15,978 bases of DNA from a virus, in the UHGV virus genome UHGV-0117658. One strand, given 5' to 3'. Both the position numbers and the translations under genes were made by a program. The notes beneath the pieces are model-generated. The model worked only from the letters and a program-made list of their open reading frames with translations, made no database searches and was not told the origin of the DNA. Of this stretch, positions 9,394 to 15,928 are shown one piece after another; position 1 is the first letter of the stretch; every line of letters begins with the position of its first letter.

Positions 9394-9398
9394 AAAAA

Positions 9399-9426
9399 AG
9401 CACCGCTACCGGTGCTTTTATTTTCT
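9399..9426 (+). terminator. Rho-independent terminator (stem agcaccg/cggtgct, loop ctac, then ttttatttt) immediately after the ogr-like gene; A-run upstream makes it potentially bidirectional
   Basis: Read directly from sequence. Confidence 0.6.
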
Positions 9427-9532
9427 GAGATGTAACAGATTCCCATCTATCAACGTCGATGAATGACCAAGTGATTAATAGTCCCCCCCTCCTAAACATG
9501 ATATTATCTTTCCAAATTTTGGGAGGCATCTT

Positions 9533-10252
9533 ATGTTAATAGTCTCAGTTCTTAAATGTAGTAAAGAGTTTACCCCTAAACACGCCCAATGGCTTCATCG
9601 TCAGTTCAAAGATATTCCATCTATATGTTTAACCGATGCAGATAATATTCCTGGAGTTAACACAACCCCTTTGCTTTATAACTGGCCGGGATGGTGGTCT
9701 AAAATTGAACTATTTAATCCTAATCACCCAGTCCTTGGAGACCAAGATTTACTCTATTTTGACGTAGATGTTGTGGTCACGGGAGATATTCATATTTTCG
9801 AAGGTGCGAAGAAATTTACAATGCTTCGGGAGTTTAACCATGCCTCAAGAGTAAACTCATCAATAATGATGATTCCGGCGTCGATTAAAAAGACGATTTG
9901 GGAACAATTCATTATTGATCCTGAGAAAATTATGCGCAATTGTCAGACTGAAGACAAATGGGGTGATCAGGGATTTCTCGGTAGCATCATAAAACCAGCC
10001 CTATGGCAGGATATCATTCCTGGCTCAATTGTTAGTTATAAATGTGACATCGCCACCCCCTCGATGATTGGCTTCAATGCAAATTTAGCCTCTGAGGCTG
10101 CGACAGGGAAAGTCCCTGATAATGTGGCGGTTGTTTGCTTTCATGGCAGTCCACGCCCCTGGCGTACTGGTTTTGATTGGGTTCCTTCGTTTTCCCTGCG
10201 GGATACTCTGTACGGTAAATTAAAGAACTTTAAAATAAGAATGAAGCAATAA
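9533..10252 (+). CDS. Glycosyltransferase family 8-like (LgtC/RfaJ-type) nucleotide-sugar transferase, 239 aa; AT-rich accessory gene
   Basis: DxD motif in LYFDVDVVV, WGDQGFL and CFHGSPRPW blocks parallel GT8 motifs (YLDIDVLV, QDQDILN, HYCGPAKPW in LgtC, recalled from memory). Strong SD gggagg 6 nt before the ATG. Clearly lower GC than the flanking phage genes. Confidence 0.6.
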   Translation: MLIVSVLKCSKEFTPKHAQWLHRQFKDIPSICLTDADNIPGVNTTPLLYNWPGWWSKIELFNPNHPVLGDQDLLYFDVDVVVTGDIHIFEGAKKFTMLREFNHASRVNSSIMMIPASIKKTIWEQFIIDPEKIMRNCQTEDKWGDQGFLGSIIKPALWQDIIPGSIVSYKCDIATPSMIGFNANLASEAATGKVPDNVAVVCFHGSPRPWRTGFDWVPSFSLRDTLYGKLKNFKIRMKQ

Positions 10253-10320
10253 AGATAACGCCCCTATTGCTTCAATGTTCGCTCCTTCCCCTAACAATAA
10301 AGTTAGGCACTAGTGAACCG

Positions 10321-12978
10321 TTACTTTTCCCGGCCAAATATCCAGCAGCGGAATGTTTCCGGCATCCGTTGCATATCCCCTTTACCACGATTATGGCGCT
10401 CACTTACCGCGCTGCGCGTGGTGCTTTGTCTGATAAACCGGCGCTCATTGCCGTTTTTAAGCAGCTTTTTAATTTCCGTTAACGTGAACGGAATACGCTG
10501 CCGGTGTGCTGCGGCGACCTCTTCCATGTGATTGAAATTAACCGCGATTTCATTTTCATCTGATGAATGATTGATGCCATAAGGTGCCAGTTCATCCAAG
10601 TAATCAAACAGCTCCCAGAACTCCTGCACCAGAGGATGATCCTTTTTAAGTGCCTGACAACGTTCAACGGCCAGCGCGGTGATGGCTTCACGCGTTTTTT
10701 CTATACGTTCAACCGGCACCGGTACAACAAGTGCAAGCGCCTCCAGCAAGCCCACAAGCTGCGCGTGATTCTTTGCAATACGGATATGGCGAATACTGCT
10801 ATTAGACTCCAGCTCATTCCTAGCTCGCTCGTACCCCCTGCCGAACGTCTGCATGATTTCTTTTTCGCGCATGGTGGCCAGTAATGTGAATCCGGATACC
10901 TGGCTAACGGGGAGTTGTTCAAGTCGTTCTGCAGCGTGGCGCGTCTGAATGGACTGGCCGCGCTTGTCGGTATAGATGTGGATGATACGCTCCAGAAACG
11001 CCTTGCTGCCGTCTGTGTCGGCATTTTGCGCTATCACAATACTTCCCCTGAACGGCGGCTCATACGTCTCGTTATTGTTCGATTTGATACCCACGGCGCG
11101 GGAGGCACGACCGTTATACAGTGATTTCAGCTCGTCCCAGTCAAAAGCGCGTTGCTTGGCGTTATCGGTAGTACGGTCGCCCTCAATCAGCACAACCGGC
11201 AGATTACCGACCTGGGCGAAGTTACGGCCACGCGCGGCGGCGGTAGATTTAGATGGGTCAAACCCTTCGTATTCCTCACGGCCGGCGAGCTTCCAGAGAA
11301 ATTCTATCAGCGTGGATTTACCTGTCCCCGGCTCGCCCACGATTTCCAGAAACGGAAATGACTTGTCACGCTCGCGGATTTGTTCGGCAAACAGCGACCC
11401 CAGCCAGAACGCCAGCGCCACATACCCTTTTTCACCAAATGCCGTCCAGATATCGTCTACCCAACCCGTAGTAAACTCGTTCAGCTTCGGATTCAGATCC
11501 AGCGCCGGCGTGAGGCTCAGGCTCTTAACGCTGGCACTGTTGATTTCGAAGTAATCCTCGTCGTTCATCTCATACAGCCGGCCATCGCAAACGGCCACGC
11601 GGTTAAACAACCAGGCGGCATAATCCTTGTTATAGCCGATGAAATTCTGCGTCTTTACCTCTTTGATTTCAGGGAGGCGCATCTGGATGAACTTATCCAG
11701 CTGTTTGGTGCTGCCTGTGTACACCGCCCCTTTGGCGATGTGCAGCAGACGCTTTTTGAACTCGGCGGAGCTGGTGAGCTGATTAGCCGTGAAAGTATCT
11801 TTCACGGCTGGCCGGTTAGGCATACTGACTTTCACGTAATACCAGGACTCGTCCGTAGGTTCAGACCGCTGAAAGTAAAGCGGCGTCAGCCAGCAGTTAG
11901 CTATTTCGGTCACGCCGCCTGACTCTTTAACCGCCCGTTCTTTGGCCTCCCACTCCATCACCACTTCGGTACCGGTATTGGTGATGCGCTCATAGGCTCG
12001 CATATACCTGTCCAGATCCAGCTCAAACCAGTACATGCGGGAGTTATGCTCAAAGTAGAACGAGTGCCACTCGTTATGCTGATGCATGAGCAGCGCTTTC
12101 TCAGTCGGGCTTTTTGCCAGAAGGAGATCGCCATAGTAGCGATAATTTTTAATGTCCGACTTACTGAACCGGTTACGTAACAACAGGTCATTCCAGTCCA
12201 GCGATGCCGATGATTTCACCGGCTGCGCGGCACGAGTTTTCCATCCTGCAGCATCACTACGGGCAGCGAACGCCAGTGTGTGCTTTGTGCCGGCTTTATC
12301 GCCGTCAAACGCCCATACAAGACGTGGACGTGGTTTTTCACCCAGTTCTTTGGCCAGCGTATCCAGTGCGGCCAGCGGATAGTTGTTACTGCTCAGTGTG
12401 GCAACTGCAGGTAACCCTGCCTGGCACAGACTCAGCGCGTTGAAGATTCCCTCAGTGATCCAGATTTCGTTCACTTCCTGCAGGTTGATAAAGGGAGGAA
12501 CCCACCAGTGACCGACATAGCTTCCCCTGATGTTGGCTTTCTGCTTACCGAAGCGCTGCGGCTGGTCAATGATGCGCTCCCATGTTGCACCGCATGACAG
12601 CGAAAATCTGACCGTTGCCGACCCCATGCCATCTTTCACGAATGCACCCTGGGTAAAACAGCCTTTTAATGGCTCAGTCTCCAGCCCTCTGGCCTCGCGC
12701 AGATACGCCTCAGCTACTGCATGGGGGTTATCTTCTGTGGTCTGGTAACGTTTTGACCAGTCTTCAAAGATATCCGGATACAGCTCTTTCACGACAATCT
12801 GATGTGCGCAGTTATTTTCACGGCCACATTTCAGAATCCAGGGCTTTTCTATGCTGGTAAATAATTCGCGCTTACGACAGGCAGGGCAAACGCCCTGCTG
12901 CAAATACTTATCCCGCTCTTTAAATTCAAAGTCCCGAACAAGACGGCGCACAACGTCCTGTTGTATCGTTTCGTTCAT
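10321..12978 (-). CDS. Replicative primase-helicase, P4-alpha-like architecture (N-terminal Cys4 zinc ribbon, TOPRIM primase domain, C-terminal P-loop NTPase), about 885 aa
   Basis: CPACRK...CGRENNCAH zinc ribbon; TOPRIM-like ITEGIFNALSL and FDGDKAG motifs; Walker A GEPGTGKST. The track ORF begins at a TTG (13014); the first ATG (MNETIQQ) at 12978 is used here. Confidence 0.8.
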   Translation of the reverse strand: MNETIQQDVVRRLVRDFEFKERDKYLQQGVCPACRKRELFTSIEKPWILKCGRENNCAHQIVVKELYPDIFEDWSKRYQTTEDNPHAVAEAYLREARGLETEPLKGCFTQGAFVKDGMGSATVRFSLSCGATWERIIDQPQRFGKQKANIRGSYVGHWWVPPFINLQEVNEIWITEGIFNALSLCQAGLPAVATLSSNNYPLAALDTLAKELGEKPRPRLVWAFDGDKAGTKHTLAFAARSDAAGWKTRAAQPVKSSASLDWNDLLLRNRFSKSDIKNYRYYGDLLLAKSPTEKALLMHQHNEWHSFYFEHNSRMYWFELDLDRYMRAYERITNTGTEVVMEWEAKERAVKESGGVTEIANCWLTPLYFQRSEPTDESWYYVKVSMPNRPAVKDTFTANQLTSSAEFKKRLLHIAKGAVYTGSTKQLDKFIQMRLPEIKEVKTQNFIGYNKDYAAWLFNRVAVCDGRLYEMNDEDYFEINSASVKSLSLTPALDLNPKLNEFTTGWVDDIWTAFGEKGYVALAFWLGSLFAEQIRERDKSFPFLEIVGEPGTGKSTLIEFLWKLAGREEYEGFDPSKSTAAARGRNFAQVGNLPVVLIEGDRTTDNAKQRAFDWDELKSLYNGRASRAVGIKSNNNETYEPPFRGSIVIAQNADTDGSKAFLERIIHIYTDKRGQSIQTRHAAERLEQLPVSQVSGFTLLATMREKEIMQTFGRGYERARNELESNSSIRHIRIAKNHAQLVGLLEALALVVPVPVERIEKTREAITALAVERCQALKKDHPLVQEFWELFDYLDELAPYGINHSSDENEIAVNFNHMEEVAAAHRQRIPFTLTEIKKLLKNGNERRFIRQSTTRSAVSERHNRGKGDMQRMPETFRCWIFGREK

Positions 12979-13017
12979 AAATAATCCAGATGTGAAATAA
13001 TGGGTAAAAGGCAAAAA

Positions 13018-13236
13018 CTATATTCTGTACTGCTTGTTATATCGCTCATGTGTCATTAGTTCCCAGCTTCTGCCCTTATCCTTACTCAGTAATCGCCAGC
13101 GATAAGAAACATGAACAGAGAAATAATGTTTTGGCTTAATAACCTGATATACCTTTTTGCCGTTGTAATATTCTGTCAGCACTGAAAATGCCTTGTGAAT
13201 GACACTTTCACTTGCATGAGAGGTCACTGTAAGCAT
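13018..13236 (-). CDS. Possible small basic protein (72 aa), start 2 nt after the exonuclease stop; uncertain
   Basis: ORF only; AT-rich; no SD recognised; occupies the otherwise 260-bp gap between the exonuclease and primase genes. Confidence 0.25.
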   Translation of the reverse strand: MLTVTSHASESVIHKAFSVLTEYYNGKKVYQVIKPKHYFSVHVSYRWRLLSKDKGRSWELMTHERYNKQYRI

Positions 13237-13238
13237 CG

Positions 13239-13808
13239 TTATTTCACACTGGCTATTTTTACAAGATACATCCAGACATAAGAAACAACTTTAGCCTGAT
13301 GAATGGCATCATATAAAGCGTGATGTTTAACACCATCAAACTTAATAATATTACGAACATTCAGCCCAAGTGTTTTTGACAGTTCAACAACCGTTCTTAC
13401 ATCACGGTCATTCCAGTAGTACCAAAGTGGATCGGCAAACCCGCATTTCTCTGATGCATTACGTAAAATAACATTGTCGAACGCTGCACTATTCCCCCAT
13501 ACCTGTACTTTAGATGGGTCAGAATGCTCAGTAATAAAAGCTTCCAGATTAGCTAACGTCAGAGGCAAGTCCAGACAATCGTCATTAAGCAGCTCGCTAC
13601 GCGCTTCGGCATCCTGACGCATCCACCATAATACGGTTTCTGACCCCATAGTGAGACCGTGGCCTACACAGCTGCCCAGGCTGACACGTTGATAAAACTG
13701 TTCACCCATTTCGCCAGTTTCAGGGTCAAAGAATACAGCACCGATAGAAGCAATCGCAGAAGTCGGTTTATTATCCATTGTTTCAAGGTCAATCATTAAA
13801 TGTTTCAT
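13239..13808 (-). CDS. DEDDh-type 3'-5' exonuclease (DnaQ-like fold), 189 aa
   Basis: N-terminal MIDLET motif (Exo I, D-x-E), a central ...FD... block and C-terminal H-x4-D (HHALYDA) are characteristic of the DnaQ/RNase T superfamily; SD aaggaaccgat-ATG. Confidence 0.75.
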   Translation of the reverse strand: MKHLMIDLETMDNKPTSAIASIGAVFFDPETGEMGEQFYQRVSLGSCVGHGLTMGSETVLWWMRQDAEARSELLNDDCLDLPLTLANLEAFITEHSDPSKVQVWGNSAAFDNVILRNASEKCGFADPLWYYWNDRDVRTVVELSKTLGLNVRNIIKFDGVKHHALYDAIHQAKVVSYVWMYLVKIASVK

Positions 13809-13817
13809 ATCGGTTCC

Positions 13818-14153
13818 TTAACGTTGGGAAGCTGCAACAGATTTAAGATGCGAGTTATTACTTTTTAACGCTGTGGTAGCCAGCGACATAAGACCGGAAA
13901 TGTTATTTTCAGTTGGTATATTTCCGCCAAATACCATAAGCGTGATTTTGTGCAGTTCTTCAAAATCATCACTATCATTATTAAAGCGAGCAGTGGAGGT
14001 TATACCCTCAAGGCATTTTGCAAGCTGAATGTTTAATTCCATTAACTGCAAGCCATCGCTATGTACAGAGAATGTTTCTTTATCAATAGTTTTTGCCTGA
14101 GCGTGATAGTTTTGCAACAGACTACGAATCAGCGTGGCATATTTAGTCTTCAT
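13818..14153 (-). CDS. Hypothetical protein (about 111 aa from the ATG at 14153), AT-rich early-region gene
   Basis: ORF with GGGGA SD before the ATG at 14153 (the track's 14165 start is a TTG); no recognised domain. Confidence 0.5.
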   Translation of the reverse strand: MKTKYATLIRSLLQNYHAQAKTIDKETFSVHSDGLQLMELNIQLAKCLEGITSTARFNNDSDDFEELHKITLMVFGGNIPTENNISGLMSLATTALKSNNSHLKSVAASQR

Positions 14154-14179
14154 GATAATCCCCAATAATATTTAGTTTA

Positions 14180-14461
14180 CTAACGAGCACTTTTATCTTT
14201 CGTGAATAAACGGTTCTTCCAGTCATGCCATTCAGGCGGGGCAATTTGAGCCAAATGAATGGCATAAGCATCCCATTCCCCCCGATGGATATAGATTTCC
14301 CCACCTTTTTTTGATGGATTTAGAGGGTCTTTCATGCGGATTACCGGCAGTTTTCCAGCCGTGGCCATTTTGCGAATTGCAGCAGGCGTTTTGCCTATAT
14401 ATTCGGCAAAAAGCTCAGGGGTCACCAACTCTGAAAGCGCCTTTTCTGCTGGTTCCTTCAT
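14180..14461 (-). CDS. cox: Cox-like/excisionase-family small DNA-binding protein (93 aa), divergent from the repressor
   Basis: Position and orientation identical to P2 cox relative to C and int; size 93 aa (P2 Cox 91 aa); ...GKLPVIRMKDP... resembles the Cox/Xis-type wing region as recalled. Confidence 0.65.
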   Translation of the reverse strand: MKEPAEKALSELVTPELFAEYIGKTPAAIRKMATAGKLPVIRMKDPLNPSKKGGEIYIHRGEWDAYAIHLAQIAPPEWHDWKNRLFTKDKSAR

Positions 14462-14569
14462 CTGTGGTATCCTTCGTTAGTTTGGGTTCCTAGGGCGCTT
14501 TAAGTCGTTCTAGGGTTCTTTTGTCAAGGTTCTTTTGTAAGAACCAATAATAGTTACGATACAAGAACC
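14462..14569. promoter_or_regulatory. Immunity switch region between cox and C: divergent promoters with multiple GGTTCT half-sites (direct and inverted) and two CTAGGG motifs
   Basis: Direct reading: gggttcc (14484), gttctaggg (14507), ggttcttttgt x2 (14514, 14529; 15-bp period), inverted aagaacc x2 (14539, 14563); ctaggg at 14490 and 14510. Confidence 0.55.
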
Positions 14570-14869
14570 ATGTCAAGAAATTATGCGGAGAAACTCCGGC
14601 AGATCCGGAAAGCTGAAGGGTTAACTCAAAAAGATTTTTCAGAGCTTACTGGGGTAGCTCTTGGAACAATAAAAAAGTACGAAACTGGCCATCAGCCAGC
14701 TCGTGCAGAAGTCTTAGAAAGTGTTATAGAGGTACATATGTTTGAAAAATATACACTCTGGTTAATGACAGATAAGACGGCACCAATTGCGGGGCAGGTG
14801 TCCCCGTCTCTCTCCCCTGATGGGCAAGACAACATAACATCATCCCGTTCCACCCGGAAAATTGGCTAA
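14570..14869 (+). CDS. C: P2 C-type immunity repressor (HTH), 99 aa
   Basis: Exactly 99 aa like P2 C; HTH LTQKDFSELTGVALGTIKKYETG; the FEKYTLWLMTDKTAPIAGQVSP block parallels P2 C (FTKYTLWFMTNQIAPESGQIAP, recalled from memory). Confidence 0.8.
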   Translation: MSRNYAEKLRQIRKAEGLTQKDFSELTGVALGTIKKYETGHQPARAEVLESVIEVHMFEKYTLWLMTDKTAPIAGQVSPSLSPDGQDNITSSRSTRKIG

Positions 14870-14935
14870 ACATCTGGTTTTTCTATGCGTTAGCGCAAAA
14901 TTTACATAATGATTCATACATCGGAGGGCTTCGCT

Positions 14936-15928
14936 ATGTCGATTAAGAAGCTTGATGATGGTCGTTTTGAAGTGGACGTTAGACCGCGCGGAACCTCAGG
15001 AAGAAGGATTCGACGCAAATTTGACAGAAAGGCGGAAGCACAGGCATACGAGCGGTATGTACTGACAAACTTTCACGATAAAGAATGGCAGGATAAACCC
15101 GCAGACAGGAGGCTTGTATCCGAGTTAATTTCTTTATGGTGGAGCTACCATGGAAAGAATCACAACTATGGTGACTCATATAAAAAGCGTTTGGAAAAAA
15201 TCAACCGAGAAATGGCGGAACCCAGAGTGTACGAGCTTACCCGCAACTTTCTGATGAAATATCGTGCAGAACGACTTCATAGTGGAGTATCTGCTGGCAC
15301 GGTAAACAGGGATTTCTGTTCCATGTCCAGCATGTTCAGTTTGCTGATAGATATGGAAGAATTTCATCACGAAAACCCGTTTCGCGCCGTGAAGAAGTTA
15401 CGTCTGGAAAACACAGAAATGTCATTTCTGTCCGAAGAAGAGATCCACCATTTGCTGAATGCCCTTACAGGGGATGATCGCAGAGTTGTCGTTCTTTGCC
15501 TGAATACAGGAGCACGATGGGGTGAAGCCAGTAATCTTAAAGCTGAAAACGTGATAAGTAACCGTGTGACCTTTGTTAAGACCAAAACCGGCCCAGCTCG
15601 TACTGTTCCGATATCGAAGGAAATCGCGGACTACATCCTTACACGCAAATCGGGGAAATTGTTCGATACCAACTATGAGCGAGTTCGCGATGTTCTTCGT
15701 AAGATTAAGCCAGACTTGCCGAAAGGTCAGGCACTGCATGTTTTACGCCATACCTTCGCAACACATTTCATGATCAACGGCGGGAATATCATCACGCTAC
15801 AGCGTATTTTGGGTCATACAACAATCGAGCAAACAATGACATATGCTCACTTCGCCCCAGATTATCTGACTGATGCCATACGATTTAACCCTATGCGTGG
15901 GAGTGTCCACATAATGTCCACCGACTAG
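14936..15928 (+). CDS. int: P2-family tyrosine integrase, about 330 aa
   Basis: Begins MSIKKLDDGRFEVDVRP after a GGAGG SD (the track ORF starts 9 codons upstream); catalytic-region blocks CLNTGARWGEA, NRVTFVKTKT, HVLRHTFATHFMINGG, ITLQRILGHT.IEQTM.YAHFAP match P2 Int as recalled. Confidence 0.9.
   Translation: MSIKKLDDGRFEVDVRPRGTSGRRIRRKFDRKAEAQAYERYVLTNFHDKEWQDKPADRRLVSELISLWWSYHGKNHNYGDSYKKRLEKINREMAEPRVYELTRNFLMKYRAERLHSGVSAGTVNRDFCSMSSMFSLLIDMEEFHHENPFRAVKKLRLENTEMSFLSEEEIHHLLNALTGDDRRVVVLCLNTGARWGEASNLKAENVISNRVTFVKTKTGPARTVPISKEIADYILTRKSGKLFDTNYERVRDVLRKIKPDLPKGQALHVLRHTFATHFMINGGNIITLQRILGHTTIEQTMTYAHFAPDYLTDAIRFNPMRGSVHIMSTD

What the first reader, a model, noticed from the sequence alone, without database searches (positions are those of the whole stretch)
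13018..14153. Early-region cargo: exonuclease plus AT-rich unknown genes between cox and the primase
Where P2 has orf78 and B, this element has an AT-rich 111-aa unknown, a DEDDh exonuclease and possibly a 72-aa basic ORF. Small early genes at this position in temperate phages often encode anti-defence or host-takeover functions.
Basis: inference. Interest (0 to 1): 0.45.

Follow-up and report, generated by a model that had tools for sequence, protein, structure and literature searches.

The report
Conserved early genes of P2-like prophage
The flagged stretch holds three real genes (a small unknown protein, a DNA-trimming exonuclease and a tiny toxin-shaped protein) that are a standard, conserved part of the early lytic operon of one lineage of P2-like E. 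coli prophages, not mobile cargo, and their exact roles are still untested.

Summary
On the minus strand, between cox (14180-14461) and a Toprim primase-helicase (10321-12978), lie orf111 (13818-14153), a DexA/Rv2179c-family DEDDh exonuclease (13239-13808) and a basic 72-aa ORF (13018-13236). The segment is 40.7% GC; the primase is 52%.

The "cargo" reading does not hold. Where the full upstream region is present, 26 of 28 related viral contigs keep cox-orf111-exo-orf72-primase in this order. All three genes are under purifying selection (dN/dS 0.09-0.19). One strong promoter upstream of cox appears to drive the block. The variable slot lies on the other side of the primase (9394-10320).

- **orf111** is a lineage-restricted helical orphan.
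- **The exonuclease** here keeps all five catalytic residues. Many sister phages carry alleles that lost three of them yet stay under purifying selection. Its conserved role may therefore not need catalysis.

Anti-defence or host-takeover roles remain untested. Overall this is an ordinary new member of known families, with two modestly interesting loose ends.

The parts
14547..14576 (-). Early promoter (Pe-like): TTGACA, 18-nt spacer, TATTAT, upstream of cox
   Evidence: It matches 11 of 12 consensus positions and is the only strong minus-strand promoter in 12800-14950. Its position matches P2 Pe between C and cox. Function is inferred.
14180..14461 (-). cox, the first gene of the early operon (93 aa)
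   Evidence: PF10743 Phage_Cox at E 7.7e-25. PGAP names it 'Cox family DNA-binding protein'.
13818..14153 (-). orf111: a lineage-restricted helical protein of unknown function
   Evidence: No Pfam match; phrog_7058 at E 9e-44. There are 43 homologues at 55-95% identity in Enterobacteriaceae. Only 7 hits appeared among 1.84 billion cluster representatives. AlphaFold2 gives three helices plus a disordered tail at pLDDT 69.6. Fold searches were unspecific. dN/dS is 0.11.
13239..13808 (-). DexA/Rv2179c-family DEDDh 3'-5' exonuclease (189 aa) with an intact catalytic set
   Evidence: PF16473 at E 1.1e-67, phrog_255 'exonuclease' and T4 DexA 8KEN at E 1.7e-9. D7, E9, D111, H162 and D167 align with DexA D7, E9, D119, H186 and D191. 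dN/dS within its class is 0.10.
13018..13236 (-). orf72: a PF24732 mini-protein with a RelE/ParE fold (72 aa, pI 9.9), starting 2 nt after the exo stop codon
10321..12978 (-). Toprim primase-helicase, the last gene of the early operon (885 aa)
   Evidence: Toprim_3 and Toprim_2 domains, a sub-threshold DUF5906 match with a P-loop, and phrog_1139 'DNA primase' at 1241 bits.

Best explanation
The segment is the middle of the early lytic operon of an Evevirus-like P2-family (Peduoviridae) prophage, integrated next to pheA in E. coli.

Three tightly packed genes are transcribed with cox and the primase-helicase from the repressor-controlled early promoter:
- an orphan helical protein (orf111);
- a catalytically intact DexA/Rv2179c-type DEDDh 3'-5' exonuclease;
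- a 72-aa basic RelE/ParE-fold protein (PF24732).

They form the lineage-typical accessory block of that operon, not acquired cargo.

Shown here: gene identity, synteny, purifying selection, the intact catalytic residues and the fold of orf72.

Inferred: the genes are silent in the lysogen and made only after derepression or infection. The exonuclease trims 3' DNA ends or oligonucleotides in phage DNA metabolism, as T4 DexA does. orf72 acts through its conserved basic beta-sheet face and C-terminal H-E-x-Y-N motif as an RNA- or gyrase-directed effector. It needs no antitoxin because it is made only in a cell already committed to lysis.

None of the three is strictly required for primase-driven replication.
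For: - **Identity of the element.** 19 of 5426 complete E. coli genomes carry it at 99.5% identity or more. It has P2-type capsid, terminase, tail and ogr genes and sits beside pheL/pheA.
- **Families.**
- **Synteny.** The order is kept in 26 of 28 relatives and in lineages with 60-63% primase identity.
- **Transcription unit.** There is a single strong promoter and no internal terminator. Intergenic gaps are 2-41 nt, and cox, orf111 and exo have AAGGA or GGGGA ribosome-binding sites.
- **Selection.** dN/dS is 0.09-0.19.
- **orf72 fold.**
- **orf72 has no antitoxin.** No partner ORF, Rfam RNA or tandem repeat was found. Homologues also sit in early regions of virulent phages (Sortsnevirus) and of other temperate phages.
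- **Dispensability.** L022 has an 86%-identical primase and none of the three genes. L026 lacks orf72.
Against: - No expression, activity or toxicity data exist for any member.
- Many sister alleles of the exonuclease lost D111, H162 and D167 yet remain under purifying selection. The conserved role of this slot may therefore not be hydrolysis, which weakens the DexA-like reading.
- The promoter scan is a consensus match only.
Confidence: 0.72

Rival explanations
1. One reading: the three genes are accessory cargo in the early region that encode anti-defence or host-takeover functions.
For: - GC content is low, 38-42% against 52% in the primase.
- Alleles are strongly mosaic. Exonuclease identity to the window ranges from 41% to 100% while the flanking primase stays at 86-97%, with breakpoints inside the gene. 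That pattern is compatible with an arms race.
- orf72 has a toxin fold.
- L022 shows that the genes are dispensable.
Against: - Position and gene content are constant in 26 of 28 relatives.
- There is no separate promoter.
- PADLOC gives nothing beyond a weak match to the CRISPR-Cas-associated DEDDh model.
- The cox, C and int region is also low in GC, so composition does not mark an insertion.
- The genuinely variable slot is elsewhere.
Confidence: 0.2
2. The exonuclease is a prophage-borne defence gene of the HREX/EcD type. It would digest the modified (5hmC) DNA of superinfecting T-even phages.
For: An E. coli DexA homologue, EcD, protects against T4 when expressed from a plasmid (PMC12153337). 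The window protein keeps the catalytic residues and the equivalent of DexA W152, which is W132. The genera richest in 'bacterial' DexA homologues (Escherichia, Citrobacter, Klebsiella) are hosts of these prophages.
Against: - The gene sits inside the repressor-controlled early operon with no promoter of its own, so it should be silent in lysogens.
- The DexA D169 equivalent aligns to G148.
- EcD is a different allele: its cloning primers encode MIDTET... at the start and ...TIPETYD at the end.
- Catalytically dead alleles occupy the same slot in sister phages.
Confidence: 0.1
3. The exonuclease-like protein and orf72 form a functional pair. This could be a non-canonical toxin-neutraliser module or an enzyme-regulator pair, in which the exonuclease fold serves mainly as a binding scaffold.
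For: - The order exo-like then PF24732 recurs in two divergent Peduoviridae lineages with different downstream genes, primase versus Dam. The exo-like proteins are 27% identical and the PF24732 proteins 40% identical.
- Only 2 nt separate the exo stop from the orf72 start.
- Of 67 unique exo-like proteins upstream of PF24732 genes, only about 17 keep the full DEDDh set. Dead alleles still have dN/dS of 0.13.
- The exo C-terminal tail beyond the Pfam domain is conserved across both classes.
Against: - PF24732 genes occur without any exo-like neighbour in Irrigatiovirus, Serratia BZS1 and Sortsnevirus.
- L026 has the exo-like gene without orf72.
- Exonuclease classes and orf72 alleles reassort freely, with no covariation.
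- No interaction prediction could be run.
Confidence: 0.12
4. All three are dedicated replication accessory factors of the primase-helicase, filling the role of P2 gpB and Orf80-83.
For: They are conserved immediately upstream of the replication gene and probably co-translated with it. P2 has the replication protein B in the equivalent interval.
Against: L022 keeps the primase without them. Catalytically dead exonuclease alleles exist. PF24732 genes sit next to methylases, or in phages with other replication proteins.
Confidence: 0.15

Closest known systems
T4 DexA (exonuclease A; PDB 8KEL/8KEN) and the Pfam PF16473 Rv2179c-like family
   Same: It shares the DEDDh fold family and a full-length HMM match. 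All five catalytic residues and the W152 equivalent are present. The family is common in phages, with 1590 phage records matching.
   Different: It is 189 aa against 227 aa and lacks the extra DexA loops. The D90 (tetramer) and D169 (5hmC) equivalents align to L83 and G148. It is encoded in a temperate P2-like early operon, not in a T-even genome. Its substrate is unknown.
E. coli EcD / HREX anti-T4 exonuclease (PMC12153337)
   Same: Both are short DexA homologues from E. coli with intact catalytic residues.
   Different: The sequence differs at both termini. The gene here lies in a repressed lytic operon. The acidic residue proposed for 5hmC recognition is not conserved. No defence phenotype has been tested.
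RelE/ParE-superfamily type II toxins (RelE, YoeB, YafQ, HigB, ParE)
   Different: - It is 72 aa against 84-100 aa and has one N-terminal helix instead of two.
- No adjacent antitoxin gene was found.
- No sequence similarity is detectable.
- It sits in lytic early operons, including those of virulent phages.
- Toxicity is untested.
P2 early operon (cox, orf78, B, orf80-83, A)
   Same: The int-C / Pe-cox layout and the late genes are the same. Small accessory ORFs lie between cox and the replication gene.
   Different: The replication protein is a Toprim primase-helicase, not the GPA nickase. None of the three genes matched phage P2 in the tblastn searches of the phage collection (orf72 and orf111).
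Escherichia phage ESSI2_ev239 (Evevirus, NC_049392)
   Same: It has the same cox-orf111-exo-orf72-primase order. orf111 is 92% identical and orf72 93% identical.
   Different: Its exonuclease gene is the 186-aa length variant, 48% identical, which is the length of the catalytically dead class. Its orf72 homologue is not annotated in the record. The slot downstream of the primase holds different genes.

Membership tests
PF16473 Rv2179c/DexA-like DEDDh exonucleases | Full-length match to the family HMM above the gathering score | tested here: met
   227.6 bits against a cutoff of 27, covering residues 2-179 of profile positions 1-177.
PF16473 Rv2179c/DexA-like DEDDh exonucleases | DEDDh catalytic residues (DxE, D, Hx4D) | tested here: met
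   D7, E9, D111, H162 and D167 align to DexA D7, E9, D119, H186 and D191. Sister class B alleles fail this test.
PF16473 Rv2179c/DexA-like DEDDh exonucleases | 3'-5' exonuclease activity | not testable with these tools
   This needs an enzyme assay.
HREX / EcD modification-dependent defence exonuclease | Residues for 5hmC recognition (DexA W152 and D169) | tested here: inconclusive
   W132 aligns to W152. The D169 position aligns to G148, in a loop where the alignment is uncertain.
HREX / EcD modification-dependent defence exonuclease | Expressed in the uninfected (lysogenic) cell | tested here: inconclusive
   No promoter-like site lies between cox and the gene. The only strong one is the repressor-proximal Pe. 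This is a consensus scan only.
HREX / EcD modification-dependent defence exonuclease | Protection against T-even phages | not testable with these tools
   This needs plaque assays.
PF24732 ParE_like / RelE-ParE superfamily | Match to the family HMM above the gathering score | tested here: met
   61.4 bits against a cutoff of 24.4. The listed homologues all carry PF24732 as their only recorded Pfam domain, and most are 69-82 aa.
PF24732 ParE_like / RelE-ParE superfamily | RelE/ParE fold | tested here: met
Type II toxin-antitoxin system (RelBE/ParDE type) | Adjacent small antitoxin gene, usually with a DNA-binding domain | tested here: not met
   The neighbours are a 189-aa exonuclease and an 885-aa primase. 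No other ORF, Rfam RNA or tandem repeat was found. Other phages also show no conserved small partner.
Type II toxin-antitoxin system (RelBE/ParDE type) | Toxicity neutralised by the partner | not testable with these tools
   This needs expression tests.
Phage cargo / moron in a variable hotspot | Presence or absence varies between otherwise syntenic relatives | tested here: not met
   The block is present in the same order in 26 of 28 relatives. In contrast, the ogr-primase gap varies from 24 to 2100 bp.
Phage cargo / moron in a variable hotspot | Own promoter and terminator, independent of the phage operon | tested here: not met
   None was found on the minus strand between 13018 and 14461.

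The most novel reading that the evidence does not exclude
PF24732 proteins would be a widespread class of antitoxin-less RelE/ParE-fold effectors that enterobacterial phages, temperate and virulent, deploy only during lytic growth. Possible uses are host shut-off or countering toxin-antitoxin-based immunity. In P2-like phages they would work together with a DexA-like protein whose conserved role is non-catalytic, such as neutraliser, chaperone, or binder of nucleic acids or nucleotides. That would explain why catalytically dead exonuclease alleles persist under purifying selection.
Probability: 0.15. Interest if true: 0.65.

Novelty: new member of a known kind. Interest (0 to 1): 0.33.

Why it matters
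As filed, this corrects an annotation reading. The interval is a conserved early-operon block, and the real cargo slot is on the other side of the primase.

Two loose ends could matter more widely.
- **PF24732.** It has at least 510 clusters at 90% identity, the listed members are all from Enterobacterales, and no characterised member turned up. It has a toxin fold but no antitoxin and lies in lytic operons.
- **DexA-like genes in P2-like phages.** They split into catalytically intact and catalytically dead alleles, both under selection. This bears on the recent claim that 'bacterial' DexA homologues are defence genes (PMC12153337), because many of those may be prophage early genes.

Tried and rejected
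- **orf72 against solved structures by sequence.** The single sequence gave only a chance hit to eIF4E at E 1.2. The family profile gave nothing.
- **orf72 family against RelE and YoeB.** Family assignment therefore rests on Pfam and on the fold.
- **A hidden RNA antitoxin.** Rfam gave one sub-threshold chance hit, and no tandem repeats lie in the gene block.
- **Literature.** PF24732, 'ParE-like' with 'P2-like', and Peduoviridae with exonuclease, primase and cox each returned nothing. A search for orphan phage toxins returned nothing relevant.
- **Is the window exonuclease EcD?** No. The EcD cloning primers encode different termini.
- **Do exo and orf72 co-evolve as a toxin-antitoxin pair?** No. 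Alleles reassort freely.
- **Is missing orf72 annotation in some E. coli genomes due to mutation?** No. The ORF is intact there, so it is an annotation inconsistency.

Full report
**What the window is.** The 1.7 kb around the finding is at least 99.5% identical to a chromosomal segment in 19 of 5426 complete E. coli genomes, many of them from pig, pork or cattle sources. In strain 54 the segment belongs to a P2-type prophage with P2-family capsid, scaffold, terminase, portal, tail and ogr genes. The prophage is inserted beside pheL/pheA. The nearest named phage is Escherichia phage ESSI2_ev239 (Peduoviridae, Evevirus).

**The observation.** The minus strand carries these genes in order:
- cox, 14180-14461 (PF10743);
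- orf111, 13818-14153;
- a 189-aa exonuclease, 13239-13808;
- a 72-aa ORF, 13018-13236;
- an 885-aa Toprim primase-helicase, 10321-12978.

On the plus strand, the C-type repressor (14570-14869) and the integrase (14909-15928) diverge from cox. The finding's segment is 40.7% GC, against 48.7% for the window and 52.4% for the primase. orf72 is basic, with pI 9.9.

**Are the small ORFs genes?** Yes, on evolutionary grounds.
- orf111 has 43 homologues and orf72 has 24 close homologues in Salmonella, Citrobacter, Klebsiella, Kosakonia, Serratia, Cedecea and related genera.
- Both are intact with ATG starts in 27 related viral contigs, apart from one nonsense allele of orf72.
- Pairwise Nei-Gojobori dN/dS is 0.11 for orf111, 0.09 for orf72, 0.19 for the exonuclease, 0.09 for cox and 0.04 for the primase.
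- RefSeq already annotates all three. Newer PGAP runs name orf72 'ParE family toxin-like protein'.

**Cargo or core?** I fetched 30 viral contigs encoding close relatives of the primase. Of the 28 with the full upstream region, 26 have cox-orf111-exo-orf72-primase in the same order. A second scan seeded on orf72 found the same order in lineages whose primase is only 60-63% identical.

There are two exceptions. L022 has a small RHH protein and a small HTH-like protein followed directly by the primase. L026 lacks orf72.

A single strong sigma-70-like promoter lies upstream of cox at 14576-14547: TTGACA, 18-nt spacer, TATTAT. The scan found only a weak 9-of-12 minus-strand match (inside orf72) and no terminator-like site on that strand inside the block. 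Genes are separated by 2-41 nt, and cox, orf111 and exo have AAGGA or GGGGA ribosome-binding sites.

By contrast, the gap between the primase stop and ogr ranges from 24 to 2100 bp among the same contigs. The window's occupant of that gap, a 239-aa ORF at 9533-10252, occurs only in the near-identical copies. That position corresponds to the tin/old lysogenic-conversion site of P2. So the flagged block is lineage core, or near-core and dispensable. The cargo slot is elsewhere.

**The exonuclease.**
- *Family.* It gives a full-length PF16473 (Rv2179c-like) match at E 1.1e-67. The closest solved structure is T4 DexA at E 1.7e-9.
- *Catalytic residues.* D7, E9, D111, H162 and D167 align with the DexA catalytic residues, numbered from the alignment (DexA D7, E9, D119, H186, D191). 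The paper's figure legend lists the second residue as E12.
- *Distribution.* The family is very common in phages, with 1590 of 50,697 records matching.
- *Relation to EcD.* A 2025 paper reports that an E. coli DexA homologue, EcD, digests 5hmC DNA and protects against T4 (PMC12153337). EcD is a different allele, because its cloning primers encode MIDTET... and ...TIPETYD. The window protein keeps the W152 equivalent (W132), but G148 aligns to D169. Its place in a repressed lytic operon argues against a role in the lysogen.

**An unexpected feature of sister phages.** Alleles at this slot fall into two classes.
- *Class A* is 189 aa, includes the window, and has an intact DEDDh set.
- *Class B* is 186 aa and 41-50% identical to the window protein. 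D111 is replaced by H, R or N. H162 is replaced by R, N or G. D167 is replaced by H, K or Q.

Class B still matches PF16473 over its full length at E 1e-40 to 1e-52 and has dN/dS of 0.13. The Klebsiella Reipivirus-type homologues are also degenerate. Among 67 unique exo-like proteins lying just upstream of a PF24732 gene, about 17 keep the full catalytic set.

Sliding-window identity places mosaic breakpoints inside the gene, near 13760 and 13290. The 3' end of the exonuclease gene travels with orf72 and the primase.

I infer from standard DEDD two-metal chemistry that class B cannot be an exonuclease. The function that keeps this slot occupied may therefore be non-catalytic.

**orf72.**
- *Family size.* A profile search found 510 clusters at 90% identity. 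The 120 best are listed: all carry PF24732 as their only recorded Pfam domain, most are 69-82 aa, and those with a named source organism are all Enterobacterales.
- *Conserved residues.* The invariant or nearly invariant residues are R46, W47, R48, L49, L50, S51, G55, W58, H63, E64, Y66 and N67. They map to strands beta3-beta4 and the C-terminal helix. Alternate residues on beta3 should form a basic face. This resembles the layout of RelE- or YoeB-type active sites, but that is my inference and was not tested.
- *Antitoxin and context.* No antitoxin candidate exists. Homologues occur next to Dam or Dcm methylases, DksA-type zinc fingers, RNase_T exonucleases or the GPA replication protein in other P2-like phages. 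They also occur in early regions of virulent Sortsnevirus phages and of temperate Serratia phages.
- *Reading.* A toxin-fold protein made only in the lytic programme would need no antitoxin. That is the reading I favour, with low confidence.

**orf111.** It has no Pfam, NCBIfam or PADLOC match and belongs to phrog_7058. Only seven hits appeared among 1.84 billion cluster representatives. The model at pLDDT 69.6 is a three-helix bundle with a disordered C-terminus. Fold searches are uninformative. Its function is unknown. By position and co-transcription I can say only that it is an early lytic protein specific to this lineage.

**Verdict.** The 'cargo' interpretation is not supported. The 'anti-defence or host-takeover' interpretation is untested and is plausible only for orf72. 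The block is a new member of known kinds, and all three genes are already annotated in RefSeq. The dead-exonuclease alleles and the antitoxin-less RelE/ParE-fold family are worth a modest follow-up.

Noticed in passing
window 9394-10320 (ORF 9533-10252, + strand): A 239-aa ORF sits between ogr and the primase stop. This interval varies from 24 to 2100 bp among relatives and corresponds in position to the P2 tin/old site. The ORF matches phrog_1962 'glycosyltransferase' (moron category) at E 6e-81. It has no Pfam, PADLOC or PDB match and occurs only in the near-identical prophage copies. This is the real cargo slot.
   Followed up: partly
L016, L017, L018, L023-L026, L029, L063-L066 (exo-like gene upstream of the primase); L033 2914-3480: The exo-like proteins in these sister phages lack 2-4 of the five DEDDh residues. 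They keep a full-length PF16473 match, and the class B alleles have dN/dS of about 0.13. They look like pseudo-exonucleases under purifying selection.
   Followed up: partly
L002 2174-2392; L003 and L004 2693-2911: These prophage copies are otherwise about 100% identical to the window. Their orf72 carries changes at adjacent invariant residues: W47 to stop in L002 and R46 to H in L003 and L004. That is two independent hits on the conserved motif, a weak hint of selection against active orf72. The E. coli RefSeq copies I checked are intact.
   Followed up: partly
NC_049392.1 23854-24069 (L032, between gp29 and gp30): The orf72 homologue of Escherichia phage ESSI2_ev239 is 93% identical but is not annotated in the RefSeq or GenBank record. 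Several E. coli PGAP annotations also omit the intact ORF.
   Followed up: yes
L022 1000-2020: This natural variant has an 86%-identical primase, but its early operon is only a 63-aa protein with a weak, sub-threshold RHH-like match, then a 71-aa ORF, then the primase. It also has a different repressor and integrase. All three flagged genes are therefore dispensable for this replication module, if that prophage is functional.
   Followed up: partly
literature: PMC12153337: The paper that proposes 'bacterial' DexA homologues (HREX/EcD) as defence genes never uses the word 'prophage'. The genera it lists as richest in homologues (Escherichia, Citrobacter, Klebsiella) are the hosts of the P2-like prophages seen here. 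Many of those homologues may be prophage early genes. This is an inference and was not checked against its sequence list.
   Followed up: no
window 13290-13760: Nucleotide identity to relatives drops to 37-62% in the central part of the exonuclease gene. The first ~50 nt and last ~50 nt of the gene, and the flanking genes, stay at 73-93%. This indicates allele exchange with breakpoints inside the gene.
   Followed up: partly
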